A DNA stretch of 20,000 nucleotides from an uncultured virus (IMG/VR IMGVR_UViG_3300037963_005433). Taxonomy: Duplodnaviria; Heunggongvirae; Uroviricota; Caudoviricetes. Positions 2,743 to 16,978 of the stretch are shown piece by piece (positions within the stretch are counted from its first letter, which is position 1; each line of letters begins with the position of its first letter). A program made the translations under genes and the position numbers. The stretch is taken from IMG/VR virus record IMGVR_UViG_3300037963_005433, positions 58,173-78,172 of that record. One strand, given 5' to 3'. Under the pieces are notes generated by a model. The model did no database searches. It was not told the DNA's origin and saw only the letters and a program-made list of their open reading frames with translations.

Positions 2743-2769
2743 CGTCAGTTTTAGGTCGTGACCAGGACC
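2743..2769 (-). ncRNA. Pseudoknot motif, copy 1
   Basis: GGTC-CTGGTCAC-GACC-TAAAA-CTGACG. Confidence 0.7.
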
Positions 2770-2788
2770 TGGAGTCTAAGGGGGTGTG

Positions 2789-3730
2789 TCAACCCCCCTT
2801 CTTCCAGATGTGCTTGAGCTGTTGCAGGCTGTCACCGGGATATGGGACATAGCCTGCTTCGAGCATGTTGTCGAACAGTTCCCAACTGTCATCTTCTGTA
2901 AAAGTTTCGCCCTTGCGATAGTGCCGCCAGTGACTGAGCGGTGCGTTTACACCGGACTTGGTATGGATAAGGGTCATGCGTCCCTTGGTATTGCCGTCTT
3001 CAGGCGGTGCGTACCACCAGGCAACACACTTCTCTGGTACGTCGTTGCATTCGATCCGGATCTGAGACCGCTTGCTGATGAACTCGCGGTACTTTTCGAC
3101 CCAGCTCAGGTGTTTGCAACGTGGTTTGAAGTGTGGGATCTCTTCCTTGAACGCCTGTAGATGATTGAGCTGGCGATGAAAGGACCCACATGAGCAATAA
3201 GGTTCGCCAAAACTAGCTTGCTCTTCCTGCTCTTCGTCAAAGTCACCATCCAAGTCAAGGAGCCGAGGTTTAATGTGAAACCCGTCTGGTGCAATGAGAT
3301 ACCCAATATCGAACTGTTCGTTCTGGAGTACGGGGAGTAAGGCATCTTTGGTATCAAAGTGGATGAGCTGATCAGCAAACCGTGCCTGGAAACGAGCGTT
3401 GGGATTGAGCCGCTCGCCTAGTGAGTGTGTGTATGACCAGCCTTTGAACAAGACATAACCGTTGTCCCGCCATGCACTGGGTCCACGATAATTAGGTCCA
3501 AGGTACGCAAAGAAGTTCGGTAGTCTGTTTGTGAACTTCGTGAATGCAGCGCAGACCTTTTCCCTGGGAAACTCTTGGCTGGTGCCGTCAGTGCGAGTGA
3601 TGCAAACGTTGTCGCCAACAAGACTGATGCCCGCAATGTCAGTGTCATCAAAGTCATCGAATGCGCGGCGTAAATTAGAACGGCAATAAATGAGAGACTG
3701 TGCCTCATTTAGTTTGGTTTTGGTTTCCAT
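2789..3730 (-). CDS. SWIM-type zinc finger protein
   Basis: YCSCGSFHRQ…PRCKHL (CxC…CxH) motif; likely start METKTK at 3730. Confidence 0.7.
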   Translation of the reverse strand: METKTKLNEAQSLIYCRSNLRRAFDDFDDTDIAGISLVGDNVCITRTDGTSQEFPREKVCAAFTKFTNRLPNFFAYLGPNYRGPSAWRDNGYVLFKGWSYTHSLGERLNPNARFQARFADQLIHFDTKDALLPVLQNEQFDIGYLIAPDGFHIKPRLLDLDGDFDEEQEEQASFGEPYCSCGSFHRQLNHLQAFKEEIPHFKPRCKHLSWVEKYREFISKRSQIRIECNDVPEKCVAWWYAPPEDGNTKGRMTLIHTKSGVNAPLSHWRHYRKGETFTEDDSWELFDNMLEAGYVPYPGDSLQQLKHIWKKGG

Positions 3731-3787
3731 TTGAATAGTTTGAGTTTGGTAAGATGTATGTAACATCCAAACAATCTTGGATATCAC

Positions 3788-4048
3788 ATGGACAACATCA
3801 AGTACGTTTCGTTAAGTCAATTCCAGATTGAACCAACGTTGGACGATAAGTTCTGGCTGGAGAAAGTTAAGCGATTCGTAGATGATTGTGAATCAACCTC
3901 CACATTGAAAGAAGTGGCGACCATGTTAGCCACGATCGCCACCACAAGACAGGGTGTAATTCGTGGGTTGATCCAAGACATGTTCATCTTCCAGAATGTT
4001 GCTGTCGATGAGCAGGACGTGTCCAACCCAGATGTTACTTCAAAGTGA
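3788..4048 (+). CDS. Small helical protein, possibly NblA-like
   Basis: 86-aa ORF filling the gap on the plus strand; helix-loop-helix pattern PTLDDKFWLEKVKRFVDDCES…. Confidence 0.6.
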   Translation: MDNIKYVSLSQFQIEPTLDDKFWLEKVKRFVDDCESTSTLKEVATMLATIATTRQGVIRGLIQDMFIFQNVAVDEQDVSNPDVTSK

Positions 4049-5047
4049 GGCGTCTTCGCCAGTGGGGTTCTGCTGAGCAGGCAGGGCGGGTGCATCGATA
4101 GTGCGGTTGGCAGGGGCGATCATTAGACCGTCCTTCATGCCGTAGCTGCCACCGAGCTTCTCAGCGTCTTGCTTGGCATGCTGGTTGATGTAATCAGCAA
4201 ACAGATCCTGGAACTTCCAAGCACTCTCACGGTTGTCATCCGGGATAGTGAGGTTGTCTAGTGATGCAATAGCTGTGTCTTGATCGCTGTACTCAGGGAT
4301 GTCAAACCCTTCGATGCAGCAGATCTCGACGTTGTTTGCACCACGCATGTCATTCACCAGAGTCGGGATAAAGACTGTGGTGGCAAAGAACTTCTCGTTA
4401 AAGGCCAGGGGTACCTCAGCGTCCAGTGCTTTGCACAGACACTTGGACATTTCTTTCTCGTACATCTTGACCTTTTCGGCCATGTCCGTGCCATTCAAAC
4501 CTTTGAGGGTAAGAACGATGGGAATCTTATGAGCGGGCACATTGTCCTTGGTCAGGATGTTGACCAGGTACTTGGTGCGAACGCTGTACTTACGCTTGTA
4601 CATCTCACCTTTGGCATTCGCCAGATCAGATGCAGTCTTGTCTGCTTCAAAGAGTTCCTTGACTTCAGGATCCTCGAAGGTGCCGATGGTTTGACGCATG
4701 CCACCGGTTTCTTCAACCATCAGTGGTGAACGCAGCAGAATCTGCAGCCGAGGGATGATGAAGTTCAGTCCTTCTTCGATAGAGGTGTTGGGTGCCAAGC
4801 CAAAGGTTTGCTTGTAATCCCAAAGGACGGAGCCCTTGTCGAAGTCAGCTTCCTTGGCAGTCCAGTTGCAGGTGTCCAGATCGGACTTGCGGATGAACCA
4901 ACCACGGGTCTTGGATTTGTTCAGAGGTTGAATCGTAACGAGGTTCTGGTAGCCAGAGACAAACTCTTTGGATTGGAACATCCGGAAGGAGTCAAGGCTG
5001 CGCTTGGTGATGGATGAAGCTTTTTTCACAGTGAGGTTCGTAGTCAT
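4040..5047 (-). CDS. DUF5895-like protein in the replication/recombination module
   Basis: 335-aa ORF; IPRLQILLRSPL and RTKYLVNILTKDNVPAHKIPIVLTLKG segments recall cyanobacterial DUF5895; family call tentative. Confidence 0.5.
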   Translation of the reverse strand: MTTNLTVKKASSITKRSLDSFRMFQSKEFVSGYQNLVTIQPLNKSKTRGWFIRKSDLDTCNWTAKEADFDKGSVLWDYKQTFGLAPNTSIEEGLNFIIPRLQILLRSPLMVEETGGMRQTIGTFEDPEVKELFEADKTASDLANAKGEMYKRKYSVRTKYLVNILTKDNVPAHKIPIVLTLKGLNGTDMAEKVKMYEKEMSKCLCKALDAEVPLAFNEKFFATTVFIPTLVNDMRGANNVEICCIEGFDIPEYSDQDTAIASLDNLTIPDDNRESAWKFQDLFADYINQHAKQDAEKLGGSYGMKDGLMIAPANRTIDAPALPAQQNPTGEDASL

Positions 5048-5059
5048 GAAATGAAAAGC

Positions 5060-5086
5060 GGGCAGTTTTACGTCATGCCCAGGACG
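5060..5086 (-). ncRNA. Pseudoknot motif, copy 2
   Basis: CGTC-CTGGGCAT-GACG-TAAAA-CTGCCC. Confidence 0.75.
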
Positions 5087-5095
5087 ATTTTAGTT

Positions 5096-5191
5096 CTATC
5101 CGCCAGCAGCGAATGTAAACATTAATAACACTGTCATTAGCATTGCTGGAAGTAGAAGCAAGACCAACAACTGCAGCTGATCAACTGTCAT
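5096..5191 (-). CDS. Small membrane peptide (31 aa)
   Basis: Not in the ORF track: MTVDQLQLLVLLLLPAMLMTVLLMFTFAAGG; TAATG stop/start overlap with ssb. Confidence 0.55.
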   Translation of the reverse strand: MTVDQLQLLVLLLLPAMLMTVLLMFTFAAGG

Positions 5192-6072
5192 TAGAACGGA
5201 GCGTTTTCATCATCGGTCGGTGGAGGACCGTAGGCACCAGGAAGATCCGGCAGATTCCCCCTTGCACCCACTGGTTCTTGCACCTTCCAAGGATCACTGG
5301 CAGGTTCTTGCGCAATCGCTGCTTGATGCGGAGAGCTGGGAACTTCTTGTTCCTCAGGATCACCAGTACGTCCACCCCAAAGGGATGTCACCTCCTGTCC
5401 TCCTGCCACGTTTGCTTTTGATTCGACAGGTTTTTGATCAGCAATGCCCTTGGGTGCCAAGGTCATGTTGATGAGCTGCAGCTTGGTTAGAGTGCGTTGC
5501 TCTTTGGTTTCTTTATCGGTCCACGAATCAGTGACGATACGTGCCTCGATTGTCAGACCAGTGCCCTTCTTGGTGTAGTCAGCGATCAGCTTCGCAGGCT
5601 GGAAACGATCGTCGAAACCATTGATGGCGTAGAAGTTGAACAGGTTTGACTCTCCCTTCTTGGTGACAACAGAGAGAGTTTGGTTTGTGATCATGTGGTT
5701 TGGCGTGGTCTTGCACTGCCGTGTGTCTTCAGGATTGATGTCCTTGACACACCGACCTGCCAATACCACGTTGTTCAGGATTGGAAACTGTTCAACATCG
5801 ACAGGAGTTACCACTCCACCATGCAATGAGAACGTCCTGGATTCCAAGTCGTATTGAATCTTGGCACCATGGATGTAGACACCCATGCCTTTCTTCATGG
5901 CACGAAAGCGGTTGCCCTGCTTCTCGCCATAAATGGTCAGCTCAAGATCAGTGGGAGCTTTCTTCCCATAAGGAGGGAGTGTGATTTTACAGCGCATGAC
6001 TGTATTGGTTGCGCCCGTGAAAGCCTCGCGGGGATCTTCCCGGAGTTGAGCGCACACTGTGACGAAGTTCAT
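5191..6072 (-). CDS. ssb: Single-stranded DNA-binding protein with two tandem OB folds
   Basis: MNFVTVCAQLREDP… and LNNVVLAGRCVKD…KKGTGLTIEARIVTDSWTDKETKEQR; disordered tail ending DDENAPF. Confidence 0.85.
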   Translation of the reverse strand: MNFVTVCAQLREDPREAFTGATNTVMRCKITLPPYGKKAPTDLELTIYGEKQGNRFRAMKKGMGVYIHGAKIQYDLESRTFSLHGGVVTPVDVEQFPILNNVVLAGRCVKDINPEDTRQCKTTPNHMITNQTLSVVTKKGESNLFNFYAINGFDDRFQPAKLIADYTKKGTGLTIEARIVTDSWTDKETKEQRTLTKLQLINMTLAPKGIADQKPVESKANVAGGQEVTSLWGGRTGDPEEQEVPSSPHQAAIAQEPASDPWKVQEPVGARGNLPDLPGAYGPPPTDDENAPF

Positions 6073-6091
6073 CGTAGGTACGGAAATGTGT

Positions 6092-6118
6092 TGGCAGTTT
6101 TACGTCTTACCTAGGACG
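6092..6118 (-). ncRNA. Pseudoknot motif, copy 3
   Basis: CGTC-CTAGGTAA-GACG-TAAAA-CTGCCA. Confidence 0.75.
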
Positions 6119-6124
6119 TGGGGA

Positions 6125-7987
6125 TCAATGCGTCTCCGCCCAGGAATGACCTACGCGTGAGTCGCCCTCAATCTTACATCTGAATCCAAAAAATTCTTGA
6201 GCTTCTGGGAATGCTTTCATGGCTTCTTCACGAATTTTTTCTGTGTGCTGCGGTGAGCAAGCCAACTGAATTTCATCGTGGATCATCAGCATCTGTTCCC
6301 ATTGGTGTCCGTGGGGCAAACCCAAGCGGCCTTCGATGTTCTTGTGGGTGTTGATGACAACCTGTTTCATCAGGATTGCACCAGCTGATTGAAGCAAGAC
6401 ATTTAGTCCCTTGAATGCAGACCTGCAAACCAGAGGACGACGATCAAGACCAATCAAATACCCACGAATCCCAATTGTTTCTTCAATCTGATTCTTTAAC
6501 TTTTTAAGCGCAGGTACACCAGTCATGAAGCCGTTGATGGCTGCCTTACCCATGGTTGCAAGCTTGTCGGGGTTCTTCTCATTTGGATCAATGATTGTCC
6601 CCGCCTTAATTGCACCACAGCCATACAACATCCCATACAAAAGACGCTTGCTAATATCCCTGGTTTCAACACCGAACTGCTCCTGGTTGTAGGTGTGAAT
6701 GTCTACTTCTGGATTCACAACCAGTGCTGCGTACTCTCCCTCATCCCACAGTGCCAAGTACCCAGCCAAGCAGCGCAGCTCCAGTGCCTTGGCATCAATA
6801 CCGATTAAGTCCCAACCATCAGGTGGATGAAACAAGCTGCGACATTCATGGCCGTAAGGTGAATAACCAGCGGGAACTTGCCCGAGGTTGGGAGATTTAT
6901 GGGCTGCTCGCCCCGTGATACAGCCATTGGTAATTACATTGCCGTGCATCCTGCTGGTTTGATTGTCAACCAACTTGAGCCAAGCATTACTTCCATCTGC
7001 GATTTGACCAAGACGTTTCTTGATCAACATGTATTCGGCTAGGGGTTTTGCTTCGGGGTATGGGAGTCGTTCCAACACTTCGTCATTAAGGATTGGATTT
7101 CCTTTTTCAGTTTTCTTTTCTGGTTTCCATCCGTACTTTCGTGTAAGTCGATCAACAATTTGCTGACGCGATCCAGGATTGAATTTCTCATATCGGATCT
7201 TTTCGAATGGCTGTCCTGCAACATAACCTCGTTTGGCATTGTTTACCTTCGGCGTAAACCATTCGCTGTGTTTGATGGGCGGGAAGATCTCTTCTAAATG
7301 TTCTTCGATTGCTTTTTGTTTTGCTCTAAGAACATCCACGAGATCAAGAGCTGCATCAATATCAAAAGGAACGCCTGCTCTAATTTGTTTGTTAATTGCA
7401 TAAGCAAATTCATGTTCAAGTTTAAGCGACGATCCCGGGTAGTTTTGCTTCCCGATGTGTAGCCAAAGCTTTTTAGTGACTTCAACGTCCTGGATGCAGT
7501 ACGCCAACATCTCCTCAGAAAATTCGGAGAAGTCTTTGAAGTCGATCTTATGATCGGCCAGTCTCCATCCCCAGGCCTTAAGTGAAGCGGATCCACGCAA
7601 CTTAGGTGGAACCTCCGGATATTGTTCTGTGTCGAGGTCATATAAGACCTCTGCGGGCCAGATGAGTCGTGTGCAGATGAGTGTGTCAAGAATCCGTGCA
7701 GAATGCTGGAAGTTGTAAAGCTTTTCGAGTACGGGAATATCGTAAAAGATTACATTGTGACCAATGAGAATATCGGCACTTGCCAAATGAGCAAGAGCCC
7801 TATCAATAGCATCAGGCCCGTAAGTAAAAGTCTGCCCTCTCTTAATGTCATAGATAACGACACAGTGAGTAAGAGTAACTTCATCGTAAAGACCATCAGT
7901 TTCAATGTCAAAAATTAACCACGTTTCATTTTCTGAATCGGGCTTCAACGCAAATGCTGAGTTCTTGACCTGCGAGATATTCGTCAT
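6125..7987 (-). CDS. polA: DNA polymerase family A (T7 gp5-like) with 3'-5' exonuclease
   Basis: ExoI FDIETDG, ExoII GHNVIFYD, ExoIII YCIQDV; motif A DAKALELR, motif B RDISKRLLYGMLYG, motif C IHDEIQ; ends SWAETH. Confidence 0.97.
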   Translation of the reverse strand: MTNISQVKNSAFALKPDSENETWLIFDIETDGLYDEVTLTHCVVIYDIKRGQTFTYGPDAIDRALAHLASADILIGHNVIFYDIPVLEKLYNFQHSARILDTLICTRLIWPAEVLYDLDTEQYPEVPPKLRGSASLKAWGWRLADHKIDFKDFSEFSEEMLAYCIQDVEVTKKLWLHIGKQNYPGSSLKLEHEFAYAINKQIRAGVPFDIDAALDLVDVLRAKQKAIEEHLEEIFPPIKHSEWFTPKVNNAKRGYVAGQPFEKIRYEKFNPGSRQQIVDRLTRKYGWKPEKKTEKGNPILNDEVLERLPYPEAKPLAEYMLIKKRLGQIADGSNAWLKLVDNQTSRMHGNVITNGCITGRAAHKSPNLGQVPAGYSPYGHECRSLFHPPDGWDLIGIDAKALELRCLAGYLALWDEGEYAALVVNPEVDIHTYNQEQFGVETRDISKRLLYGMLYGCGAIKAGTIIDPNEKNPDKLATMGKAAINGFMTGVPALKKLKNQIEETIGIRGYLIGLDRRPLVCRSAFKGLNVLLQSAGAILMKQVVINTHKNIEGRLGLPHGHQWEQMLMIHDEIQLACSPQHTEKIREEAMKAFPEAQEFFGFRCKIEGDSRVGHSWAETH

Positions 7988-8159
7988 TTTTGTTGATCCA
8001 GTTCAGGATTTGTTGAGCACCAGCACGGTGAGGATGGGAATAAATCCGCCCAAGGGCAGATGTTGAATCTAGATCGATCAGCTGAAAGCTGTTGGTTTCC
8101 ATACAAGGTTTGATACCTTGAGGTTTACCATTCTTCCAGGTAGCGATGACGTAACTCAT
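7926..8159 (-). CDS. Hypothetical protein
   Basis: 77-aa ORF between GP88-like gene and polymerase. Confidence 0.65.
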   Translation of the reverse strand: MSYVIATWKNGKPQGIKPCMETNSFQLIDLDSTSALGRIYSHPHRAGAQQILNWINKNDEYLAGQELSICVEARFRK

Positions 8160-8216
8160 CTGTCAGTTTATTAACCAACAGATGATATTAGATCTTGTAG
8201 GTTGTGCAACCTATTC

Positions 8217-8966
8217 CTACTTGCTGTATCCAACAAAGCCTCCTTCTTTTTTACGTTGAGATAGTGCTTTAGAAGCTTCGGTGTTAGCGCGTTGGCTGCC
8301 ATGAACCAGTAATGCAAACGGTTTGTCACCTAAGCAGTGGCTGTCGTCATGGTCAATCTCTAGACCAAGGTCAGCTGCTTCTTGTTCTGTATAAACCACC
8401 TGTGAAGTGCGAATAAAAACGTCAGGATTTTTATTTATAATTGCATCGAGGTTACCGCCCTTCGATGCTGTCAAATAAAAATTACTAGGAATTTGGTCTT
8501 TGAGATTGAGCCACATGTTGAGTGATTTGGTGTAGGCATAGAAGGTTTGATTGGGACGCTGCTTTGCAACAAGCAGCCATGCTCGCATGTATTCTTCTGT
8601 CCAGAAATCACCAGACTCATGGACACGGATTAGTTTCTTAGGTTTGGTAACCGTAAGAGACAGATCGATTAGATCACGGAGCAGTATGGCTTGGTTGCCA
8701 TTGCCGTACATAGTTTTTCGAATTAGATCCCAGTTGTGCCATCGTGCTTCTCTAACGTTAGGCCGCACTTCGCTCATTGCAGCAAAGCAACGAAAGTCTT
8801 TTGCGTCAGTGCCATTATCATTCGGAATGTCAGTGATCTTGCCTGTCACACGGTCTGCATAGGTACGGCAGACACCAGCGTGTGGACATGAATAACCTGC
8901 TGGCAGTGAGAAGATTAGTCTGTTGCGAAGTTTACCGTTGCCGGTAGAAAACTTGAGGGTTTGCAT
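8217..8966 (-). CDS. Gene product 88 (GP88)-like protein
   Basis: GNGKL…FSLPAGYSCPHAGVC…CFA, IRVHESGDFW, FYAYTKS motifs. Confidence 0.75.
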   Translation of the reverse strand: MQTLKFSTGNGKLRNRLIFSLPAGYSCPHAGVCRTYADRVTGKITDIPNDNGTDAKDFRCFAAMSEVRPNVREARWHNWDLIRKTMYGNGNQAILLRDLIDLSLTVTKPKKLIRVHESGDFWTEEYMRAWLLVAKQRPNQTFYAYTKSLNMWLNLKDQIPSNFYLTASKGGNLDAIINKNPDVFIRTSQVVYTEQEAADLGLEIDHDDSHCLGDKPFALLVHGSQRANTEASKALSQRKKEGGFVGYSK

Positions 8967-9548: not shown

Positions 9549-9554
9549 AAAGGG

Positions 9555-9606
9555 ACGTTCACCTCTATCTTGGAGGCGCAACCAACTGATCCACGGAACG
9601 GGGGAC
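9555..9606 (+). ncRNA. Downstream-peptide RNA (glutamine-II riboswitch)
   Basis: CGTTCA-CCTC…GAGG-CGCA…CCACGGAACG-GGGG: P1 CGTTC/GAACG, P2 hairpin and G run, directly upstream of a DUF4278 ORF. Confidence 0.85.
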
Positions 9607-9627
9607 AGTCTTATGCGGAGAACCACA

Positions 9628-9774
9628 ATGAAACTCGTCTATCGCGGAGTTCCATACGAGCGTAAGGAAGCTTTTGCTAGCTACCTGTGTACTCAAAACC
9701 TTAAAGTCCAACGGGCTGAAGCGGAGAAAGAGCACGATCGTCGGAATAATAGCAAGAAAGAAATGATCGTTTGA
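9628..9774 (+). CDS. DUF4278 family small protein (48 aa)
   Basis: Not in the ORF track: MKLVYRGVPYERKEAF…; YRGVxY signature; GGAG SD upstream. Confidence 0.85.
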   Translation: MKLVYRGVPYERKEAFASYLCTQNLKVQRAEAEKEHDRRNNSKKEMIV

Positions 9775-9794: not shown

Positions 9795-9820
9795 AGGCTG
9801 CCTTCGGGTGGCCTTTTTTT
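9795..9820 (+). terminator. Rho-independent terminator
   Basis: AGGCTGCC-TTCG-GGTGGCCT followed by a T tract. Confidence 0.85.
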
Positions 9821-11497: not shown

Positions 11498-11857
11498 TTA
11501 GGCAGGGGTTGCTTCAGTTTCAACTACTTCTTCAAGCATTCCTGACTCTTTGAGTTTGTCGAGCATGGCAACCATGATGTTGGCATTCTCTTGGGTCTTT
11601 TCCATAAAGTGTTTGGCACGTTCTGCAGTGATGCTGTGAACGCAGCCGTTCTCTTCGACGAAGACCCATGAGCCATCTGGTTGTGGCTTGCCCTTCTCCA
11701 GTGCCCAACGTTCGCAGTTGCGAATGTATTGGATCTGGAGATTGTGTGAGTCAGTCAGACCACGGTCGTCGATCCAGGTGAGGCCGACGTTGTAGCGAGT
11801 GTCTTCGTCTTTGAAGCAATGAGGCTGGGGAAGAAACTGTTTGAAAGCTCCTAGCAT
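11498..11857 (-). CDS. Hypothetical protein
   Basis: Start MLGAFKQF at 11857; the longer ORF-track start lies inside the tRNA. Confidence 0.7.
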   Translation of the reverse strand: MLGAFKQFLPQPHCFKDEDTRYNVGLTWIDDRGLTDSHNLQIQYIRNCERWALEKGKPQPDGSWVFVEENGCVHSITAERAKHFMEKTQENANIMVAMLDKLKESGMLEEVVETEATPA

Positions 11858-11877
11858 TGTCTTGTGTAGGTTTGGTT

Positions 11878-11966
11878 TGGTGAGAGTGGTGGGACTTGAA
11901 CCCACATAGCCATTACTGACTGACAGATTTTAAGTCTGTTGCGTCTACCAATTCCGCCACACTCTC
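11878..11966 (-). tRNA. tRNA-Leu(UAA)
   Basis: GAGAGTG acceptor stem, D arm GCGGAATTGGTAGACGC, anticodon arm ACAGA-CTTAAAA-TCTGT, long variable arm, GGTTCAAGTCC T loop, encoded CCA; no intron. Confidence 0.95.
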
Positions 11967-12001
11967 AGAAAGCCCAGGAGTTCCACCTTACCTGGGCGAG
12001 T

Positions 12002-12052
12002 CTAGGACTTACACCATCACCGCCCCATGACTAGGAAATGATGGATGCCCAG
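12002..12052 (-). ncRNA. Stem/internal-loop motif B, copy 2
   Basis: CTGGG-CAT-CCATCA…TGATGG-TGTAAGT-CCTAG. Confidence 0.55.
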
Positions 12053-12056
12053 TTGA

Positions 12057-13823
12057 TCAGGACTTTAGTTCGTCCTCACGGATTTTCAATGCTTTCTTGA
12101 AAACATCTTCAACATCCGCACGCTCTTGATCATTGAGACGTGCATTGCCAACATCTGCAATTTGATTGACAGTCATAACACCATTGTCAACAGTTAGTTG
12201 GATGGTGTAACGAGGCTTGTTGTCGATCATGCACAAGATGATGAGGTGTTTCATCTTCTTGATTCCTTCTGCATAACCATGTCCACCACCAACGCAGTTA
12301 CGTACGGCACGGCCCCACGCAGCAAGTTGGTGTGTGTCATGTGGTTGGAAGAATGAATACACAGAGTCAGTATTGAGGTAAAGACTCTTTGTATCCTTCA
12401 CTTTGATGGGTGTAGGAAACAGCTTTTGTGGTAGATCAATGTTGGGGTTACTGATCTTCCAGGTCTCTGCCATGAGATGGTCATGCCATTCCTGGAGACG
12501 CCAACGCTTTGGCTTGATGTTGTCAATCCGACCGGCTGCAATGCATTGGGTCAGCATCTGATATGTGTCACGCCAAAGGCTGAAGTAAACATGTTTGTTG
12601 CCTGTTTTGGAATCTTCCCTAGCCCAATCCTTTTCTTCTAGTTCATGCTTGTAGTGCATGTGAAGCATGTTCAGGAATGATTCAACAGGCAGGTTGTCAC
12701 GCATCCACTGATAGCCAGTTTCAGTGTGGTAACCAGGAAGTTCACAACGACAAAGCCAGTCATACCTGGAATGAAGCAGGTTGAGATCCATGTCTTCATA
12801 GATAGGTTTGATGGATAACATTGAGTCAATAAATTGATACAGGATTGCGTAAGGTTTGACAAGAGCCTCACGGTTGTACCTGAGTAATGCTGTTTGTTCT
12901 TCGTGGATGGCGTAGGTATCTTTCATAGACTGTGCCACTTTGGATCTAAACCATTTGGCATCCCATACTTCTTGTACACAAGAATGACGCCAACGTCTAC
13001 GAAATACGTTCAGAATGGTGTCAAGATCATGAACATAATCATCTGTATGATTTGCCCACCTAGGCCTGGAATAATACCCCTGCATAATGTTGATGAACTT
13101 ACAGTTCTCTGGGTTCATTCGTGCGAAAGAGCTGTCATTACCACCAGTAAATGTAGGAATAGTTTTAAACAACTGTGCTGACCATTTAGTAAGCACTTTG
13201 GATAGTTCATAGGTGGCACCGTAATTACAGATGTTGTGATTCTCAGTTACTTTTCTCCAATAGTCGGTTGTAAAACCATCAGCAAAGTCATCTTTGGTAA
13301 AGAACAAAGTCTTGCGATACCAAAACGTACGGCCATCTTTAATGCGTGGAAGCATGTCATCCTGGCTGCCATATAAATGATCAAACATAGCTGTAGTGGA
13401 ATGTAATTTTGATATAAACTTTTGATCACATTGTTTACGTGCTGCAGCTGTATCTTTGAAGGTAAAGCTAAGGCCATAGACATAGCCATCATCTTTACGT
13501 CGTGGTATCCATGCAGCAACCCACAGTTGTTTGTAGTAGTAAACAACTGCGACAGGCTGAGGATCCTCACCAAAGACAGGCTTGGTGATTAGGTGTACTT
13601 TCCCTTGTTTGACAGACTTTGAATTGATGATGTCAACAACTTCGTTCCAAGTTCTGTCGTTGACGACATCAGATGGGATAAGGTTCGAGGGCCTGCCGTT
13701 GGGATGTGTGTTCTTCTTTTTGGCTTTGCGATCTTCTGCAGCCATGACAGCTGCAAGTTTCTTGCGGGTTTGGTCATAGCCTGCAACTTCAAGTGCAAGC
13801 TGATCGGGGAGATTGAAATGCAT
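12057..13823 (-). CDS. PcfJ-like domain protein
   Basis: C-terminal WHDHL…QPHDTHQLAAWGRAVRNCVGG…YTIQL…QIADVGN matches the PcfJ pattern. Confidence 0.75.
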   Translation of the reverse strand: MHFNLPDQLALEVAGYDQTRKKLAAVMAAEDRKAKKKNTHPNGRPSNLIPSDVVNDRTWNEVVDIINSKSVKQGKVHLITKPVFGEDPQPVAVVYYYKQLWVAAWIPRRKDDGYVYGLSFTFKDTAAARKQCDQKFISKLHSTTAMFDHLYGSQDDMLPRIKDGRTFWYRKTLFFTKDDFADGFTTDYWRKVTENHNICNYGATYELSKVLTKWSAQLFKTIPTFTGGNDSSFARMNPENCKFINIMQGYYSRPRWANHTDDYVHDLDTILNVFRRRWRHSCVQEVWDAKWFRSKVAQSMKDTYAIHEEQTALLRYNREALVKPYAILYQFIDSMLSIKPIYEDMDLNLLHSRYDWLCRCELPGYHTETGYQWMRDNLPVESFLNMLHMHYKHELEEKDWAREDSKTGNKHVYFSLWRDTYQMLTQCIAAGRIDNIKPKRWRLQEWHDHLMAETWKISNPNIDLPQKLFPTPIKVKDTKSLYLNTDSVYSFFQPHDTHQLAAWGRAVRNCVGGGHGYAEGIKKMKHLIILCMIDNKPRYTIQLTVDNGVMTVNQIADVGNARLNDQERADVEDVFKKALKIREDELKS

Positions 13824-13846
13824 GATGTTGTGTAGGTATGGGGAGT

Positions 13847-13873
13847 AAGAAGTTTAACGTCATACTTAGGACG
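13847..13873 (-). ncRNA. Pseudoknot motif, copy 4
   Basis: CGTC-CTAAGTAT-GACG-TTAAA-CTTCTT. Confidence 0.7.
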
Positions 13874-13875
13874 AG

Positions 13876-14526
13876 TTAGGTTTTAGTCTTGAACAGTTGC
13901 GCAAATGTTGGAACCTTTGGCTTCTTTCCACGTGGTGCTTTGTTTACTGCTTTACTATTCACACGTGCATGCCTTAAAAATTTTTTTACAACTGACAAAG
14001 TTTCGTTGTGTGTTTGTTCAAGAGTATTCAGACGTAATTGGTTTTTACTTGCACGTGTAACTATGTCCTCCAGAAACTCTGCGTAAGCTTTCCAATTGCC
14101 ATCTTTTGGTTTACCCTGTTGAATTTTCCAATAGGTAGGTACGTCTACTTGAGGCCAAATTCTTATGCCATAGTCAATTGATCCGTCTTTACGTACATAC
14201 CGATATGGAGTGCCTTGAAATAAAACTTTTTCATAATGACCCATCGCTTGAAAACGTGGGTCTTTTGCTTTACGTCCATTTTCTAAACTAAGAACTTCCT
14301 CCGGCTCAAGCTGATGTTTGATCCAAACATGATCAATGTGCCATTTTTGACATTGAGGTACTGTTTTATCAGGAGCAAGATGTGTAAGTTTAGCGTTTAT
14401 TAGTAATACATCTAAATAACCATCGTCACCATTGCTTTTGATTTCTTTAACAAAACCTTGGATATCAACAATTTCACCCATCAAATCTTTAAGGGGTTTT
14501 CTGATAGTTCTTGGTTTGTGTTGCAT
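13876..14526 (-). CDS. Hypothetical basic protein
   Basis: Likely start MQHKPR at 14526; DHVWI and YRYVRKDGSIDYGI motifs; AT-rich. Confidence 0.7.
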   Translation of the reverse strand: MQHKPRTIRKPLKDLMGEIVDIQGFVKEIKSNGDDGYLDVLLINAKLTHLAPDKTVPQCQKWHIDHVWIKHQLEPEEVLSLENGRKAKDPRFQAMGHYEKVLFQGTPYRYVRKDGSIDYGIRIWPQVDVPTYWKIQQGKPKDGNWKAYAEFLEDIVTRASKNQLRLNTLEQTHNETLSVVKKFLRHARVNSKAVNKAPRGKKPKVPTFAQLFKTKT

Positions 14527-14557
14527 TGAAATACATAAAGTCAAAGGTATAAAAAAA

Positions 14558-14584
14558 GGGCAGTTTAGTGTCATGCCCAGGACA
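14558..14584 (-). ncRNA. Pseudoknot motif, copy 5
   Basis: TGTC-CTGGGCAT-GACA-CTAAA-CTGCCC followed by T7. Confidence 0.75.
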
Positions 14585-14590
14585 TTTGAG

Positions 14591-14848
14591 TCAGTCTAGA
14601 TACCGATCGGATGTGTCAATGACTTCCCAGTTAAGGTCAAGATCATCAACATAACGGAGGAAAGCATCTCCATGGTGGGGGAATGGTACCTCTGGATCAA
14701 TTGCAAAGCTTGCTTCGCATAGTGCCGGACCGTATTCAGCAGGTTCAAGCATAGTTTGTGCATGGACAAGAACCATGTCTTCAACCGTTGCTTCCACATA
14801 GACACGTTGATCGTCAAAGGTAGTTTCATGGATTGAAATGACAGCCAT
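14591..14848 (-). CDS. Hypothetical acidic protein
   Basis: 85 aa; TAATG coupling with the upstream gene. Confidence 0.75.
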   Translation of the reverse strand: MAVISIHETTFDDQRVYVEATVEDMVLVHAQTMLEPAEYGPALCEASFAIDPEVPFPHHGDAFLRYVDDLDLNWEVIDTSDRYLD

Positions 14849-15111
14849 TAGTTGATCTGTTTGCGAACGGTCAGATGTTTGACCATGGCGTAACCCATGG
14901 AATGAATCGATGAATCCTTTGATGCAAAGATCCCATTGGGACCATACTCCTCAAAGTATTCTTCGAAGGCATCAATGATGCGTTGCCTGTTGCTCATGTC
15001 TGCAGTTCTGTATGCAGCCATAAGTTTTTGAGCAAAGCCACCACCGTAGGTTTCAATGCGTTGAACAGTTGCTTCGATCGTTGGATCGGTAGGTGTGAGC
15101 TTGTTGAGCAT
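14848..15111 (-). CDS. Hypothetical phage protein
   Basis: YGGGFAQKLMAAYRTADMSNRQRIIDAF motif. Confidence 0.75.
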   Translation of the reverse strand: MLNKLTPTDPTIEATVQRIETYGGGFAQKLMAAYRTADMSNRQRIIDAFEEYFEEYGPNGIFASKDSSIHSMGYAMVKHLTVRKQIN

Positions 15112-15119
15112 GAGTTGAT

Positions 15120-15320
15120 TTAGAACAGTTTGATGTTGCGCTTGGACAGGCCAGTGCCCGGGATTCCAACGGAACCACGGATACCAGACCCACGGGCATT
15201 CATTGTGAACAAGAATGGTCCAAGCTTGATTGATTTGCTGAATGACTTCACACCACGTTCAGTGATGTTGAAGCCACCGACAGTTTTGTCGAAGTTGAAT
15301 GCGCTGCGTTTGCGTGTCAT
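15120..15320 (-). CDS. DUF4236-like protein
   Basis: FSKSIKLGP…SVGIPGTGLS. Confidence 0.65.
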   Translation of the reverse strand: MTRKRSAFNFDKTVGGFNITERGVKSFSKSIKLGPFLFTMNARGSGIRGSVGIPGTGLSKRNIKLF

Positions 15321-15538
15321 TGTTTGTCAGGATTGAGAGCGTCAGGCAGGATGTACCTTGGATCATCCTTTTCCATGTTCGACATAACGAACACTTCTCC
15401 TGTATTTGGATCAAGGAATCCACCGATAAATCCTGCGCCGCAAGAGTCAGCTTTTTCCCTGAGTTGTGCAGTGAGCTGCATCATGCGCAGCTTGGTGGAT
15501 TGTGGAGTGTTGTCCGGTACAGCAGGCTGGTTTGGCAT
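15317..15538 (-). CDS. Hypothetical protein
   Basis: Likely start MPNQPAV at 15538; ATGA overlap with the next gene. Confidence 0.65.
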   Translation of the reverse strand: MPNQPAVPDNTPQSTKLRMMQLTAQLREKADSCGAGFIGGFLDPNTGEVFVMSNMEKDDPRYILPDALNPDKQ

Positions 15539-15664
15539 AGTGAAATCAGGTGTAGGAATGGTGAATGAATGAGCAGTGTAGGCGGTGGTTTCACCGATGA
15601 TTAACATAGGACTTCAGCTTTTCTTAAGGATGCCGAAGACAAAGGTCCCGACATCCCAAGGTAT

Positions 15665-15907
15665 CTACTTGTAATGCAGTTGTCTAGTCCTGTAATCCAA
15701 GACGCTTTCCGTCCATGTGGAATCAGGATGATCGAGGACAGCACGGCGGGCTTTTTCGACGGCCTCTTCTGTGCCATCGTGATATAACATCAGTGAAACA
15801 GCAGTGTCTAGGTCTGCGAGCAGATGTGAGACAGCATTTGGAAGTCCACGGGGTATAGGCCTACCTTTCTGTTCGTAATACTCAATGATGTAATCAGGAT
15901 AATCCAT
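15665..15907 (-). CDS. Hypothetical protein
   Basis: 80-aa ORF. Confidence 0.65.
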   Translation of the reverse strand: MDYPDYIIEYYEQKGRPIPRGLPNAVSHLLADLDTAVSLMLYHDGTEEAVEKARRAVLDHPDSTWTESVLDYRTRQLHYK

Positions 15908-15932
15908 GAGATGAAGAAGAAAGATTGAAGGG

Positions 15933-16136
15933 TTACCTATAAGAACTAAAAGATATCTTGGTACTCCCCTTGCGGGGGTCCGGGGGGATCAATGGTTCTA
16001 CAACGAGTGCTCTATCGAGCAAACCCATGTTCTTACCTGTAATATCTATTTGTGCTGCAAGGTGCCTTGCAAATGCACCACGTCTTTTTGGCTTGAAGAC
16101 TGACTTCTTGGGTTTGTTGCCATTGTGACGTCCCAT
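15933..16136 (-). CDS. Small basic hypothetical protein
   Basis: Start MGRHNG coupled by TGATG overlap. Confidence 0.55.
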   Translation of the reverse strand: MGRHNGNKPKKSVFKPKRRGAFARHLAAQIDITGKNMGLLDRALVVEPLIPPDPRKGSTKISFSSYR

Positions 16137-16492
16137 CAAATTAAAGCGAGGATGGTCAACCAACTATCGGGGTGGTCAGGTTCGACTTCATCTTCTGCCG
16201 GTGTTAGGCAGGTTGAATCGAGTGCCCACTCCTCGATTTCTCCGTTGGAAGGGACAGGGTACCATCCTTCGAGGGAGTCCTCGACTTCTTCTGGTTTCCA
16301 GTAACACTGGAGTTTGCCACCCGGGTCTTTGAAGACGCAGCCCGTGATCGGGTGCGTGTCTTCGTCTTCTTGGTTGTAGAGGTTTGGGTTGTAGTTGACT
16401 TCTGCAGGGAACTGCTCTTGGCACTCCTCTTCGGTGAAGGGGACGTAGCCGGTGAGTTCGTCTGCAATGCGTTTGGTTTCTGGATGAAGCAT
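16136..16492 (-). CDS. Acidic hypothetical phage protein
   Basis: C-terminal EIEEWALDSTCLTP…VEPDHPDSWLTILALI. Confidence 0.7.
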   Translation of the reverse strand: MLHPETKRIADELTGYVPFTEEECQEQFPAEVNYNPNLYNQEDEDTHPITGCVFKDPGGKLQCYWKPEEVEDSLEGWYPVPSNGEIEEWALDSTCLTPAEDEVEPDHPDSWLTILALI

Positions 16493-16581
16493 GAGATCAA
16501 CTCCGTGATGATGATTGAGATGATGACAATGATGTGCAGGATGACATCATCGTGTGTGTCAGTTGTGCTTTTAGTGGTCAT
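16204..16581 (-). CDS. Membrane-anchored S/T/K-rich protein overlapping 16136..16492
   Basis: GGAGGT SD upstream of ATG; TM segment VILHIIVIISIIITELISCF. Confidence 0.45.
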   Translation of the reverse strand: MTTKSTTDTHDDVILHIIVIISIIITELISCFIQKPNALQTNSPATSPSPKRSAKSSSLQKSTTTQTSTTKKTKTRTRSRAASSKTRVANSSVTGNQKKSRTPSKDGTLSLPTEKSRSGHSIQPA

Positions 16582-16774
16582 AGCACCTCCGAGTCCAGTT
16601 ACGAAGAGTACCTATTAAAGAACAGTAGTTCTTGTAGTCTTCTTTCTTCGATAGCTGGACGCTTGTTTCATCTTGAAAAGCAGATACTGCTGATGCAACA
16701 CAGTACAAAATCATTTGAAGTTCTTGTTCTGTTAACAAGATCTTGTGGTAGCGGTCAGCTGTGGTAGTCGGCAT
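16571..16774 (-). CDS. Hypothetical protein
   Basis: Start MPTTTAD at 16774 with GGAGG SD. Confidence 0.6.
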   Translation of the reverse strand: MPTTTADRYHKILLTEQELQMILYCVASAVSAFQDETSVQLSKKEDYKNYCSLIGTLRNWTRRCYDH

Positions 16775-16928
16775 CGCCTGCCACCTCCTCTGACATGAGT
16801 TCTTGCATGAGCTGTTCTTGCTCGTTGGCAATGTCGTTAAGAACGAATTGCTGGTCTTGGGTGTACTCAGTTTTGACAGCATCGTTGAGGCGTTGCTGAT
16901 TGAGTAGCCAGGTCTTGATTAGTGACAT
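16755..16928 (-). CDS. Hypothetical protein (57 aa)
   Basis: Not in the ORF track: MSLIKTWLLNQQRLNDAVKTEY…. Confidence 0.65.
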   Translation of the reverse strand: MSLIKTWLLNQQRLNDAVKTEYTQDQQFVLNDIANEQEQLMQELMSEEVAGDADYHS

Positions 16929-16951
16929 GATTTGAAATGGTGTAGGTCAAT

Positions 16952-16978
16952 GAGCAGTTTTAGGACGTGCTCAGGTCC
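16952..16978 (-). ncRNA. Pseudoknot motif, copy 6
   Basis: GGAC-CTGAGCAC-GTCC-TAAAA-CTGCTC. Confidence 0.75.

What the first reader, a model, noticed from the sequence alone, without database searches (positions are those of the whole stretch)
2743..16978. Six dispersed copies of a 27-nt covarying H-type RNA pseudoknot between genes
Seen: six minus-strand (sense) copies at 2743-2769, 5060-5086, 6092-6118, 13847-13873, 14558-14584 and 16952-16978. All have identical spacing: 4-bp stem1, 8-nt loop starting CT, stem1', a 5-nt linker ending AAA, then CT plus 4 nt. Stem1 covaries (GGTC/GACC, CGTC/GACG, TGTC/GACA, GGAC/GTCC). The loop pairs with the 3' tail and also covaries (GTCA/TGAC, GGGCA/TGCCC, GGTA/TGCC, TGAGCA/TGCTCA, and TAAG/CTTA with a mismatch). 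Each copy lies 2-19 nt after a stop codon and 12-31 nt before the next likely start, including ssb, the DUF5895-like gene and the PcfJ-like gene. Inference: selection acts on RNA structure rather than on a DNA site, so this may be a phage-wide post-transcriptional regulon. Candidate roles are a 5' exonuclease (RNase J) block or processing signal, an SD-independent translation (re)initiation element, or a protein-binding operator analogous to the T4 gene 32 leader pseudoknot. I cannot assign it to a named family.
Basis: partly seen in the sequence, partly recalled or inferred. Interest (0 to 1): 0.9.

Follow-up and report, generated by a model that had tools for sequence, protein, structure and literature searches.

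The report
Gene-end RNA mini-pseudoknot in cyanophage
Six short spacers between the early and replication genes of this marine cyanophage hold the same tiny knotted RNA fold, a widespread phage element that no RNA catalogue lists, that resembles a plant-virus RNA known to stop RNA-degrading enzymes, and whose job in bacteria is still untested.

Summary
Six sense-strand copies of a 27-28 nt H-type pseudoknot sit at the stated coordinates, and they are the only six in the 78-kb phage genome. Layout: P1 4 bp, C(U), P2 5-6 bp, 1 nt, P1', UWAAAC, P2'.

This is one phage's share of a very large family, not a private regulon. Whichever stem the pattern left free covaries strongly. The motif also occurs in named phages and in bacterial genomes of many phyla. 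Orthologous sites in the relative S-EIV1 carry compensatory changes. No Rfam family matches, and no paper I could search describes it.

Across the family the motif is tied to the upstream gene end:
- The stop-to-knot spacing has a sharp floor at 5 nt.
- Forty-three sense tRNAs lie 2-35 nt downstream, against 3 upstream.
- The distance to the next start codon varies widely.

My best reading, untested, is a compact mechanical roadblock that caps the 3' end of the upstream message segment. The RNase-J-only, SD-replacement and gene-32-type operator ideas are not supported as general roles. The closest known element is plant-virus coremin/xrRNA-WCC, but membership fails because there is no hp2. This scan has noted the same motif on other DNA at least 18 times.

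The parts
2743..2769 (-). Pseudoknot copy 1 (GGTC-CTGGTCAC-GACC-TAAAAC-TGACG). It lies 19 nt after the TGA stop of the 332-aa gene 2789-3787 and 21 nt before the 39-aa membrane-type ORF 2602-2721 (MFETIL...).
   Evidence: The orthologous site in S-EIV1 and in 6 viral contigs, before MFE... ORFs, shows compensatory P2 changes.
5060..5086 (-). Pseudoknot copy 2 (CGTC-CTGGGCAT-GACG-TAAAAC-TGCCC). It lies 9 nt after the TAG stop of a 31-aa hydrophobic ORF (5096-5191) that overlaps the ssb stop (TAATG), and 12 nt before the DUF5895-like gene 4040-5047.
   Evidence: The orthologous S-EIV1 copy lies near 29.15 kb, before an MTT... gene.
6092..6118 (-). Pseudoknot copy 3 (CGTC-CTAGGTAA-GACG-TAAAAC-TGCCA). 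It lies 6 nt after the stop of family-A DNA polymerase 6125-7987 and 19 nt before ssb 5191-6072.
13847..13873 (-). Pseudoknot copy 4 (CGTC-CTAAGTAT-GACG-TTAAAC-TTCTT). Its P2 is weakened by one U.U mismatch. It lies 2 nt after the stop of the 216/232-aa gene 13876-14526 and 23 nt before the PcfJ-like gene 12057-13823.
   Evidence: Eight contigs whose downstream ORF begins M(Q/E)F.LP..L..EL..YDP carry GAGCA/TGCTC, GGACA/TGTCC, AGACA/TGTCT or AAGCA/TGCTT at this site. I judged the likeness of the window gene's start (MHFNLPDQLALEVAGYDQ) to these by eye.
14558..14584 (-). Pseudoknot copy 5 (TGTC-CTGGGCAT-GACA-CTAAAC-TGCCC), followed directly by T7. It lies 6 nt after the stop of the 85-aa gene 14591-14848 and 31 nt before the in-frame ATG at 14526.
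   Evidence: The ATG inside the loop (14574) is only the first in-frame ATG of the mechanical ORF.
16952..16978 (-). Pseudoknot copy 6 (GGAC-CTGAGCAC-GTCC-TAAAAC-TGCTC-A). This is the only copy with P1 GGAC/GTCC. It lies 5 nt after the stop of the 60-aa gene 16984-17166 and 23 nt before the 57-aa ORF 16755-16928.

Best explanation
Each copy is transcribed as part of a polycistronic early/replication message and folds into a compact H-type pseudoknot. P1 has 4 bp. The single-base loop is C5. P2 has 5-6 bp between the hairpin loop and the 3' tail. The A-rich UWAAAC strand is placed to lie in the minor groove of P1.

The knot sits at the smallest distance behind a stop codon (5 nt or more) at which a terminating ribosome need not unwind it. 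It therefore stays folded on translated RNA.

I propose that it acts as a mechanical roadblock that delimits stable RNA segments. Its main role would be as a 3' cap. After an endonucleolytic cut downstream (RNase E/Y, or RNase P where a tRNA follows), 3'-to-5' exonucleases would stop at the knot and the upstream cistron would survive. A second, 5'-side barrier role for the cistron that follows is possible. This would fit the ssb and 216-aa genes, which are bracketed by two knots.

Shown: the fold's covariation, its strand, its placement and its distribution. Inferred: the tertiary contacts, the roadblock property and its direction.
For: The fold:
- Alignment A1 has 114 sequences. The search pattern fixed the inner P1 and left P2 free. 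P2 pairs 7-27, 8-26, 9-25 and 10-24 form in 99, 110, 110 and 110 of 114 sequences, with 31, 51, 38 and 15 double changes.
- In A1, 92.1% of cells are paired against 79.6% in shuffles (0 of 500 shuffles reach this). Slid registers give 21-47%.
- Alignment A2 has 102 sequences with P2 fixed and P1 free. P1 pairs 2-15 and 3-14 form in 101 and 102 of 102 sequences, using four Watson-Crick types.
- With P1 free, 115 of 137 instances have 4 of 4 P1 pairs.

RNA on the sense strand:
- G.U 68 against A.C 14 in A1, and 12 against 7 in A2.

Link to the gene end:
- Of the instances with a sense ORF end nearby, the stop lies 2-12 nt before the knot in 60 of 87, 77 of 108 and 37 of 72, in the three sets.
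- The antisense control gives 25 of 70, 17 of 50 and 15 of 49.
- There is a cliff at 5 nt: 29, 25 and 10 instances sit at exactly 5 nt, and only 2, 3 and 4 at 2-4 nt.
- The distance to the next start spreads over 6-198 nt.

tRNA asymmetry:
- Forty-three sense tRNAs lie downstream, 42 of them 2-14 nt after the knot and one at 35 nt. Three lie upstream and none is antisense.
- After RNase P cleavage the upstream RNA would be left with a tail of only a few bases behind the knot.

Position in this window:
- Strong intrinsic terminators lie elsewhere on the minus strand, at 18037-18020, 11477-11457 and 892-872. The knots are therefore internal to transcription units.

Conservation:
- The knot is kept at orthologous sites in S-EIV1 (PolA 66.6% identical) and in other contigs, with compensatory changes.
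Against: - No RNA ends were observed. The only RNA-library data were assembled contigs, which bridge copies 1-3 and cannot show ends or strand.
- The closest characterised analogue, coremin, blocks a 5'-to-3' enzyme rather than a 3'-to-5' one (PMC6546385 abstract; PMC10520033 passages).
- In this phage lineage the knot-to-start distance is also narrow (12-31 nt here), so a role for the downstream gene is not excluded.
- The individual helices are weak. P1 scores -2.0 to -4.7 kcal/mol and P2 scores 0.0 to -6.8 over 6 pairs. Stability would have to come from tertiary contacts that I could not model.
- In a bacterial microprotein family the stop codon lies inside the knot's loop and a normal terminator follows. 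A simple 3'-cap model does not explain this.
- The search patterns fixed the conserved bases, so conservation of those bases is not an independent result.
Confidence: 0.42

Rival explanations
1. A 5'-side barrier like an xrRNA. The knot would stop a machine moving 5'-to-3', either RNase J exonuclease or RNase E scanning from a monophosphorylated end. It would then become the protective 5' end of the cistron that follows.
For: - The motif shares its core with coremin: a loop starting with C, the closing G of P1', and then UUAAACU. Coremin stalls Xrn1 and scanning ribosomes, and xrRNA-WCC does so with a Watson-Crick loop-spacer helix (passages of PMC10520033 and PMC10321173).
- In this window each knot lies 12-31 nt before a start codon.
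- The ssb and 216-aa genes have a knot on both sides.
- Cyanobacterial hosts have RNase J: the Synechococcus elongatus control genome gave a match to the family, though the output does not say whether it passed the cut-off.
Against: - Across the family the knot tracks the upstream stop and not the downstream start.
- Forty-three knots stand just before tRNAs, whose 5' leaders RNase P removes. Only 3 follow a tRNA.
- No RNase J match was found in 3 of 5 host genomes tested: two MAGs, which may be incomplete, and Saprospira grandis.
- Vibrio phages carry a variant.
- The hp2 hairpin that coremin needs for Xrn1 resistance is absent.
Confidence: 0.2
2. A ribosome-directed element. The knot would sit at the mRNA entrance of a ribosome that has the stop codon in its A site. 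It would tune termination, or block post-termination sliding and re-initiation, and so insulate neighbouring cistrons translationally.
For: - The 5-nt floor of the stop-to-knot spacing equals the spacer range of -1 frameshift stimulators (own knowledge).
- Coremin stalls scanning ribosomes and stimulates frameshifting (PMC10520033 and PMC10321173 passages).
- In a bacterial microprotein family the UGA stop lies inside the loop.
Against: - A floor with a tail up to about 30 nt is also what mere avoidance of the ribosome footprint predicts.
- Knots before tRNAs have no cistron to insulate.
- No slippery heptamers or extended frames were looked for or seen.
Confidence: 0.15
3. A transcription-level signal. 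The nascent knot would act as a pause or as a weak, non-canonical intrinsic terminator or attenuator between genes.
For: - A T-rich run (6 or more T in the 9 nt after the knot) follows in 11 of 128, 16 of 136 and 17 of 121 instances.
- Window copy 5 is followed by T7.
- The knot in Staphylococcus phage B166 is followed by TTTTT.
Against: - About 86-91% of instances have no T run.
- RNA-library contigs run across copies 1-3 (weak evidence).
- Canonical terminators are not enriched behind the knot in viral contigs: 6 of 122 and 2 of 131, against 4 and 5 in the upstream control.
Confidence: 0.08
4. A binding site for a phage or host protein that co-regulates the flanked genes. This would be an operator or regulon, as at T4 gene 32. 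Alternatively, an SD-independent ribosome landing pad.
For: - One copy precedes ssb.
- Leaders behind the knots lack an SD and are G-poor.
- A second short motif, ACCTAC, follows the knot in 5 of the 6 copies.
Against: - The same knot occurs in hosts of at least nine bacterial phyla and in unrelated phages. A dedicated protein partner is therefore unlikely.
- Genes of this window without the knot lack an SD too.
- Other phages have normal SDs behind the knot.
- Many knots precede tRNAs.
Confidence: 0.08
5. A DNA-level element. This could be a single-stranded DNA fold used in replication or recombination, or a mobile mini-repeat that marks cassette borders.
For: - An RNA-library contig of a relative joins 13840 to 14552. 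It thus lacks exactly the gene between copies 4 and 5 plus one knot.
- A remnant ATGTATTTCAAT behind copy 5 resembles the start of the PcfJ-like gene behind copy 4.
Against: - The excess of G.U over A.C shows that only the sense strand folds well.
- The strict tie to stop codons and to gene orientation fits RNA.
- The six copies all differ in both stems, unlike a recently spread repeat.
Confidence: 0.04

Closest known systems
[quoted passage not shown]
   Same: - A small hairpin whose loop starts with a pyrimidine and ends A-N.
- The same spacer core, UUAAACU, directly behind the hairpin. In this phage lineage even the GUC/GAC stem is shared.
- In xrRNA-WCC the loop pairs with the spacer bases behind AAAC to form an H-type pseudoknot.
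- Viral, tiny, and also found in intergenic regions.
   Different: - Coremin needs a second hairpin (hp2) right behind the spacer. The phage motif has none: 0 of 6 copies, and no enrichment in 384 relatives.
- The coremin loop is YGAD or YGNNAD. Here it is CUNNNNAN, with U at position 2.
- S2 is 3 bp in WCC and 5-6 bp here.
- P1 is free to vary across the phage family, with more than 50 sequences.
- The carriers here are DNA phages and bacteria, which have no Xrn1.
- Here the motif is tied to the upstream stop codon.
Pistol self-cleaving ribozyme (Rfam RF02679), 5' domain
   Same: A P1 hairpin whose loop forms a roughly 6-bp pseudoknot, followed by a linker with conserved AAA. Common in phage DNA. 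(This description of pistol is recalled; I saw only the abstract of PMC4604425 in the listing.)
   Different: - There is no P2, no P3 and no cleavage-site strand. The pseudoknot partner follows the linker directly, and a start codon or tRNA follows within 2-31 nt.
- No pistol hit at E up to 10 in the window or in 20 related loci.
Compact luteovirus-type H-type pseudoknots that stimulate -1 frameshifting (BWYV type; own knowledge)
   Same: About 28 nt long. Short L1 with a conserved C. One base at the helix junction. An A-rich L3 opposite a G-C-rich S1. Placed 5-9 nt behind the codon in the ribosomal A site.
   Different: Here the A-site codon is a stop codon and no overlapping frame continues. 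The motif is repeated between genes and before tRNAs.
Intercistronic 3' stabiliser hairpins of bacterial operons (REP in malEFG, puf operon hairpins; own knowledge)
   Same: Placed just behind the stop codon of the upstream cistron inside an operon. Proposed here to work in the same way.
   Different: Those are long G+C-rich hairpins. This is a 27-nt pseudoknot with conserved single-stranded bases.
T2/T4 gene 32 translational-operator pseudoknot
   Same: An H-type pseudoknot in a phage leader, here also found before an ssb gene (copy 3).
   Different: That element is a single site that gp32 itself uses for autoregulation. Here five of the six copies precede other genes, and the family occurs without ssb and before tRNAs.

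Membership tests
Coremin / xrRNA-C | hp1: 3-bp GUC/GAC stem with a YGAD (or YGNNAD) loop | tested here: not met
   The stem is GUC/GAC in 5 of the 6 copies but varies freely across the family. The loop is 8 nt, CUNNNNAN, with U rather than G at position 2. The consensus comes from the PMC6546385 abstract and PMC10520033 passages.
Coremin / xrRNA-C | Conserved spacer GUUAAACUAC behind hp1 | tested here: inconclusive
   UWAAACU is present in all copies, but my search patterns required it. The final AC of the spacer is replaced by the variable P2 strand.
Coremin / xrRNA-C | Second hairpin (hp2, about 4 bp) directly behind the spacer, required for Xrn1 resistance | tested here: not met
   Present in 0 of the 6 copies. 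In the three sets it is found in 12 of 129, 12 of 135 and 21 of 120 instances, against 12, 7 and 10 after shuffling and 22, 32 and 21 at a site 30 nt further on.
Coremin / xrRNA-C | Stalls a 5'-to-3' exoribonuclease | not testable with these tools
   Needs an enzyme assay.
xrRNA-WCC (Watson-Crick coremin) | Antiparallel Watson-Crick S2 between the hp1 loop and the spacer bases behind AAAC | tested here: met
   P2 pairs form in 99-110 of 114 sequences, with 15-51 double changes per pair. P2 is 5-6 bp here, against 3 bp in WCC (PMC10321173 passages).
xrRNA-WCC (Watson-Crick coremin) | G at loop position 5, plus hp2, for Xrn1 resistance | tested here: not met
   The L1 base is an invariant C here. 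There is no hp2.
Pistol ribozyme (RF02679) | P2 and P3 helices and a G-U cleavage site behind the P1/pseudoknot domain; match to the covariance model | tested here: not met
   No Rfam hit at any knot at E up to 10. Only 2-31 nt separate the knot from the next gene or tRNA.
preQ1-I riboswitch (RF00522) | Ligand pocket with a conserved C in a multi-base L2; SD sequestered in P2; match to the covariance model | tested here: not met
   No Rfam hit. The junction is a single variable base. There is no SD in P2. The riboswitch features listed are recalled.
T4 gene 32-type operator | Single site in the leader of the ssb gene, followed by an unstructured U/A-rich landing region | tested here: not met
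   There are six sites and only copy 3 precedes ssb. The family is common before tRNAs and unrelated genes.
Intrinsic (Rho-independent) terminator | G+C-rich hairpin followed directly by a U run | tested here: not met
   Only copy 5 has a T run. Across the family a T run follows in 11 of 128, 16 of 136 and 17 of 121 instances. The consensus scan places the window's terminators elsewhere.

The most novel reading that the evidence does not exclude
The phage knot and the coremin/xrRNA-WCC element of plant, fungal and invertebrate RNA viruses may be one fold class used across domains of life. It would be a 27-nt, protein-independent mechanical roadblock. In bacteria it would stop exonucleases, and perhaps ribosomes, from either side. 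Phages of most bacterial phyla would use it to cut polycistronic messages into separately stable segments. If so, it would be the first xrRNA-like element of prokaryotes and among the smallest widespread structured RNAs.
Probability: 0.3. Interest if true: 0.9.

Novelty: new variant of a known kind. Interest (0 to 1): 0.8.

Why it matters
- Phage operons are tightly packed, and how neighbouring genes reach different expression levels is largely unknown.
- A 27-nt, sequence-tolerant knot that marks gene ends in phages of cyanobacteria, Firmicutes, Actinobacteria, Bacteroidota, candidate-phyla bacteria and others points to a general post-transcriptional device that annotation pipelines and Rfam miss.
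- It is short enough for structure determination and for direct enzyme assays.
- If it blocks exonucleases it would be a ready-made insulator or stabiliser part for synthetic operons.
- Its likeness to the coremin xrRNA raises a testable question: is this convergence or shared ancestry between RNA elements of eukaryotic RNA viruses and DNA phages?

Tried and rejected
- Megablast of the window against named phages gave no match. The relative S-EIV1 was found only by protein search.
- N4-type hairpin promoter or a T7-like phage RNA polymerase promoter. The genome has no giant or T7-like polymerase gene among its large ORFs, read by eye from the translations (not scanned against Pfam). A double-stranded promoter would not covary. 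Rejected.
- tRNA-acceptor mimic (knot followed by ACCA). ACC follows in only 7 of 128, 21 of 136 and 8 of 121 instances. Rejected as a general feature.
- A -10 promoter box (TAGACT) before the knot. The upstream bases are mainly stop codons and an A-rich spacer, and the consensus scan finds no promoter at the knots. Not supported.
- RNA evidence. Four RNA-library runs were held only as assembled contigs. They cover parts of the window at 90-99% identity and bridge copies 1-3, but they show no ends, strand or level and may contain DNA. There is no finding on processing.
- Literature. I made four searches: pseudoknot/phage/intergenic terms; 'coremin'; xrRNA terms; and the sequence words GUUAAACU, GTTAAACTG and UUAAACUG. 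I also searched passages in seven papers. None describes the phage element.
- The alignment archives of PMC10690425 (10,006 candidate viral RNAs) could not be searched. The motif may be among them unnamed.
- A look-up of this scan's notes by the sequence of copy 2 found nothing.
- The 20-aa microprotein before bacterial copies matches no Pfam or NCBIfam family. It has unrelated neighbours in the two genomes examined.

Full report
**The thing itself**

All share one layout:
- positions 1-4 pair with 13-16 (P1);
- C5;
- positions 6/7-11 pair with 23-27/28 (P2);
- one free base at 12;
- the strand U-W-A-A-A-C at 17-22.

A 20-nt degenerate pattern finds 6 matches in the window against 0.21 expected, and 0 of 200 shuffles reach 6. 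In the whole 78,172-bp virus record it finds the same six and nothing else. All lie on the strand of the flanking genes.

A looser structural descriptor returns 32 hits in the genome. The six copies score 16-17 and the other 26 score 11-15. Random genomes give 44.7 hits on average, so there are no hidden extra copies. Copy 4 is imperfect, with a U.U mismatch in P2.

**The carrier**

The record is a cyanophage.
- Pfam finds the cyanophage outer-membrane-protein domain, a mannose-6-phosphate-isomerase-type cupin, family-A DNA polymerase, SSB, DUF5895 and a PcfJ-like domain.
- Rfam finds a glutamine-II riboswitch and a tRNA.
- The polymerase is 66.6% identical to that of Synechococcus phage S-EIV1.
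- No large ORF looked like a phage RNA polymerase. This was read by eye from the translations and was not scanned.
- The six knots lie in the minus-strand early/replication block. They sit between consensus intrinsic terminators at 18037-18020, 11477-11457 and 892-872, so they lie inside transcription units.

**Placement in the window**

The stop-to-knot gaps are 19, 9, 6, 2, 6 and 5 nt. The knot-to-start gaps are 21, 12, 19, 23, 31 and 23 nt. These figures require two small ORFs:
- a 31-aa hydrophobic ORF that starts in the ssb stop (TAATG) and ends 9 nt before copy 2;
- a 39-aa membrane-type ORF behind copy 1, which is conserved in relatives.

**A large family, not a private regulon**

Pattern A fixes the inner P1 and leaves P2 free. 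Pattern B fixes P2 and leaves P1 free. It reached the limit with 132 loci. Pattern B read backwards gives 3 hits.

The stem left free is almost always complementary.
- In 114 sequences (six from the window plus 108 distinct hits of pattern A), the four free P2 pairs form in 99, 110, 110 and 110 sequences. They show 31, 51, 38 and 15 double changes.
- Overall 92.1% of cells pair, against 79.6% in shuffles (0 of 500) and 21-47% in slid registers.
- In 102 distinct hits of pattern B, P1 pairs 2-15 and 3-14 form in 101 and 102 sequences with four Watson-Crick types each. The outer pair 1-16 forms in 83.
- More than 50 different P1 sequences occur.
- The optional pair U6-A28 forms in 75 of 114 and 69 of 102 sequences.
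- G.U pairs exceed A.C pairs by 68 to 14 and by 12 to 7. Only the sense strand folds well, so this is RNA.

One caveat applies. The bases the patterns demanded (CCU, A11, G13, YWAAACU) cannot be counted as independently conserved.

**Orthologous sites**

- Seven sites before the MFE... membrane peptide carry GGTCA/TGACC, AAGCA/TGCTT or GGGCA/TGCTC. The window copy has GGTCA/TGACG, with the last pair broken.
- Eight sites before the M(Q/E)F.LP... gene carry GAGCA/TGCTC, GGACA/TGTCC, AGACA/TGTCT or AAGCA/TGCTT (one of them AAGCA/TGCTA, with the last pair broken). That gene resembles, by eye, the start of the window's PcfJ-like gene.
- S-EIV1 has three copies. Two stand at the positions of window copies 1 and 2, with compensatory changes. 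There is none between its polymerase and ssb genes. Knots are therefore both maintained and turned over.

**Distribution**

It gave 121 loci and 124 instances, 116 of them with at least 3 of 4 P1 pairs. The record titles name:
- Firmicutes, Actinobacteria, Bacteroidota and Chloroflexota;
- Saccharibacteria and Parcubacteria;
- Aminicenantes and Thermodesulfobacteriota;
- beta- and gamma-proteobacteria, Verrucomicrobia, Spirochaetota and a cyanobacterium.

A BLAST of one variant against named phages finds 137 records. They include phages of Synechococcus, Microcystis, Nostoc, Lactobacillus, Mycobacterium, Arthrobacter, Paracoccus, Bacillus, Moorella, Vibrio and Staphylococcus, and the deep-sea thermophilic phage D6E.

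Rfam 15 has no match at the knots, either in the window or in 20 related loci, at E up to 10.

**What the placement says**

Among instances with a sense ORF end nearby, the stop lies 2-12 nt before the knot in 60 of 87, 77 of 108 and 37 of 72. The same test in antisense gives 25 of 70, 17 of 50 and 15 of 49.

The distribution has a cliff. There are 29, 25 and 10 instances at exactly 5 nt, and only 2, 3 and 4 at 2-4 nt. Five bases is about what a ribosome with the stop codon in its A site keeps single-stranded in its entry channel (own knowledge). So the knot sits as close to the gene end as it can without being unwound.

The distance to the next start is broad, at 6-198 nt. Among the instances whose sequence I printed, several are followed by ordinary AAGGA-type SDs.

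In 43 instances a sense tRNA follows: 42 at 2-14 nt and one at 35 nt. Only 3 knots follow a tRNA, and no tRNA is antisense. The knot therefore belongs to the end of the upstream ORF and not to the start of what follows.

Canonical terminators are not enriched behind the knot in viral contigs. A T run follows in 9-14% of instances.

**Mechanism**

These facts fit best a structure that must stay folded on translated RNA and that marks the 3' side of a cistron. After a cut downstream (RNase P where a tRNA follows, RNase E/Y elsewhere), the upstream RNA would end in the knot plus a few bases. From own knowledge, such a tail is too short for 3' exonucleases to grip. I put this at about 0.4.

The xrRNA-like 5' barrier is the main rival, at about 0.2. 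It is favoured by the likeness to coremin and, in this phage lineage, by the narrow 12-31 nt distance to start codons. It is disfavoured by the tRNA asymmetry and by hosts without a detectable RNase J: none in 3 of 5 genomes tested, two of them MAGs.

A ribosome-directed role (0.15) would explain the 5-nt floor and the bacterial microprotein genes whose UGA stop lies inside the loop. Transcription, operator and DNA-level readings are less likely, for the reasons given under the rivals.

Nothing here is experimental. The RNA-library contigs that bridge copies 1-3 cannot show ends.

**Comparison with known elements**

A lead from this scan's earlier notes pointed to the coremin xrRNA. I checked it against the papers.
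- Coremin is a 3-bp GUC/GAC hairpin with a YGAD or YGNNAD loop, the spacer GUUAAACUAC and a required second hairpin. xrRNA-WCC adds a 3-bp Watson-Crick helix between loop and spacer (PMC6546385 abstract; passages of PMC10520033 and PMC10321173).
- The phage knot shares the C-initiated loop, the UUAAACU core and the Watson-Crick loop-tail helix.
- It lacks hp2, has U instead of G at loop position 2, a longer P2 and a freely varying P1.
- It works, at most, like coremin. It is not a member of that family.
- None of these papers mentions phages or bacteria: 0 occurrences, and none of 'phage' and two unrelated ones of 'bacteri'.

Pistol, preQ1-I, the gene-32 operator and intrinsic terminators all fail their tests (see the membership table).

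**Novelty**

I found no description in Rfam 15 or in four full-text searches. The alignment archives of a 10,006-candidate viral RNA survey could not be searched. This scan itself has at least 18 earlier notes on the same motif in other genomes, all unchecked by experiment.

- the 5-nt floor in the stop-to-knot spacing;
- the 43-to-3 tRNA asymmetry;
- the G.U against A.C strand test;
- the RNase J census of host genomes;
- the orthologous compensatory changes with S-EIV1;
- the cassette-like indel between two copies;
- the bacterial microprotein context.

Noticed in passing
window 9553-9609 (+), with ORF 9613-9774 (+) and terminator-like hairpin 9795-9814 (+): A glutamine-II riboswitch (RF01704, 45.4 bits against a gathering score of 33) lies on the opposite strand. 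It is followed by a 53-aa ORF and a strong terminator-like hairpin. Together these make a small plus-strand unit inside the minus-strand block.
   Followed up: no
window 11881-11966 (-): A tRNA gene (62.9 bits) spans 86 nt on the DNA against a 71-position model. This suggests a long variable arm or an insert. It has no knot in front of it.
   Followed up: no
window 13840 / 14552 (joint in RNA-library run X16): A 441-nt contig of a close relative joins the leader behind copy 5 to the leader behind copy 4. It thus lacks the 216-aa gene and one knot. Both leaders share ATACCT. Behind copy 5 an out-of-frame ATGTATTTCAAT resembles the start of the PcfJ-like gene behind copy 4. This looks like gene-cassette gain or loss by recombination between the knot and leader units.
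   Followed up: partly
window, 4-12 nt behind copies 1, 3, 4, 5 and 6 (for example 6075-6081, 13834-13840): A second short motif, (T)ACCTAC/ACCTAA/ACCTTT, recurs in the G-poor leaders behind the knots. It also recurs in some relatives (L030, L034, L048, L081). It is not SD-like. In copy 3 it could pair with the loop as an alternative to P2.
   Followed up: no
window 2775-2798 (-): A GGGGGG...CCCCC hairpin encloses the TGA stop of gene 2789-3787, just before copy 1. That copy has the longest stop-to-knot gap, 19 nt.
   Followed up: no
window 1663-1672: A run of ten N (an assembly gap).
   Followed up: no
L262, L265, L269, L278, L282, L288, L290, L308, L333, L339, L353, L356 and others (bacterial genome contigs): Chromosomes of anaerobes hold a roughly 20-aa ORF, MKR(Y/F)xVPRxxHCxxGC...S. 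The record titles name Aminicenantes, Eubacteriales, Thermodesulfobacteriota, Spirochaetota and Myxococcales. The ORF's UGA stop is the UGA inside the knot's loop. In several of them a terminator-like hairpin with a T run follows, by eye. There is no Pfam or NCBIfam match, and the neighbours are unrelated in the two genomes examined.
   Followed up: partly
L331 (Saprospira grandis DSM 2844): The knot is flanked on both sides by the same roughly 19-nt repeat (GCGAAGCAGCATTGAAACA). It may be a CRISPR spacer taken from a phage rather than a resident copy.
   Followed up: no
L382 1501-1526 (Staphylococcus phage B166, record 21042-21067): The knot lies 9 nt after the TAA stop of the head-morphogenesis gene and before the scaffold and capsid genes. 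In the deposited record it is overlapped by a software-predicted 'promoter' feature.
   Followed up: partly
L180 1498-1603: Two knots 78 nt apart flank a G+C-rich stretch that looks able to form a hairpin, just before a start codon.
   Followed up: no
window, upstream of nearly all minus-strand genes: Almost no gene of this phage has a Shine-Dalgarno sequence, whether or not a knot precedes it.
   Followed up: partly
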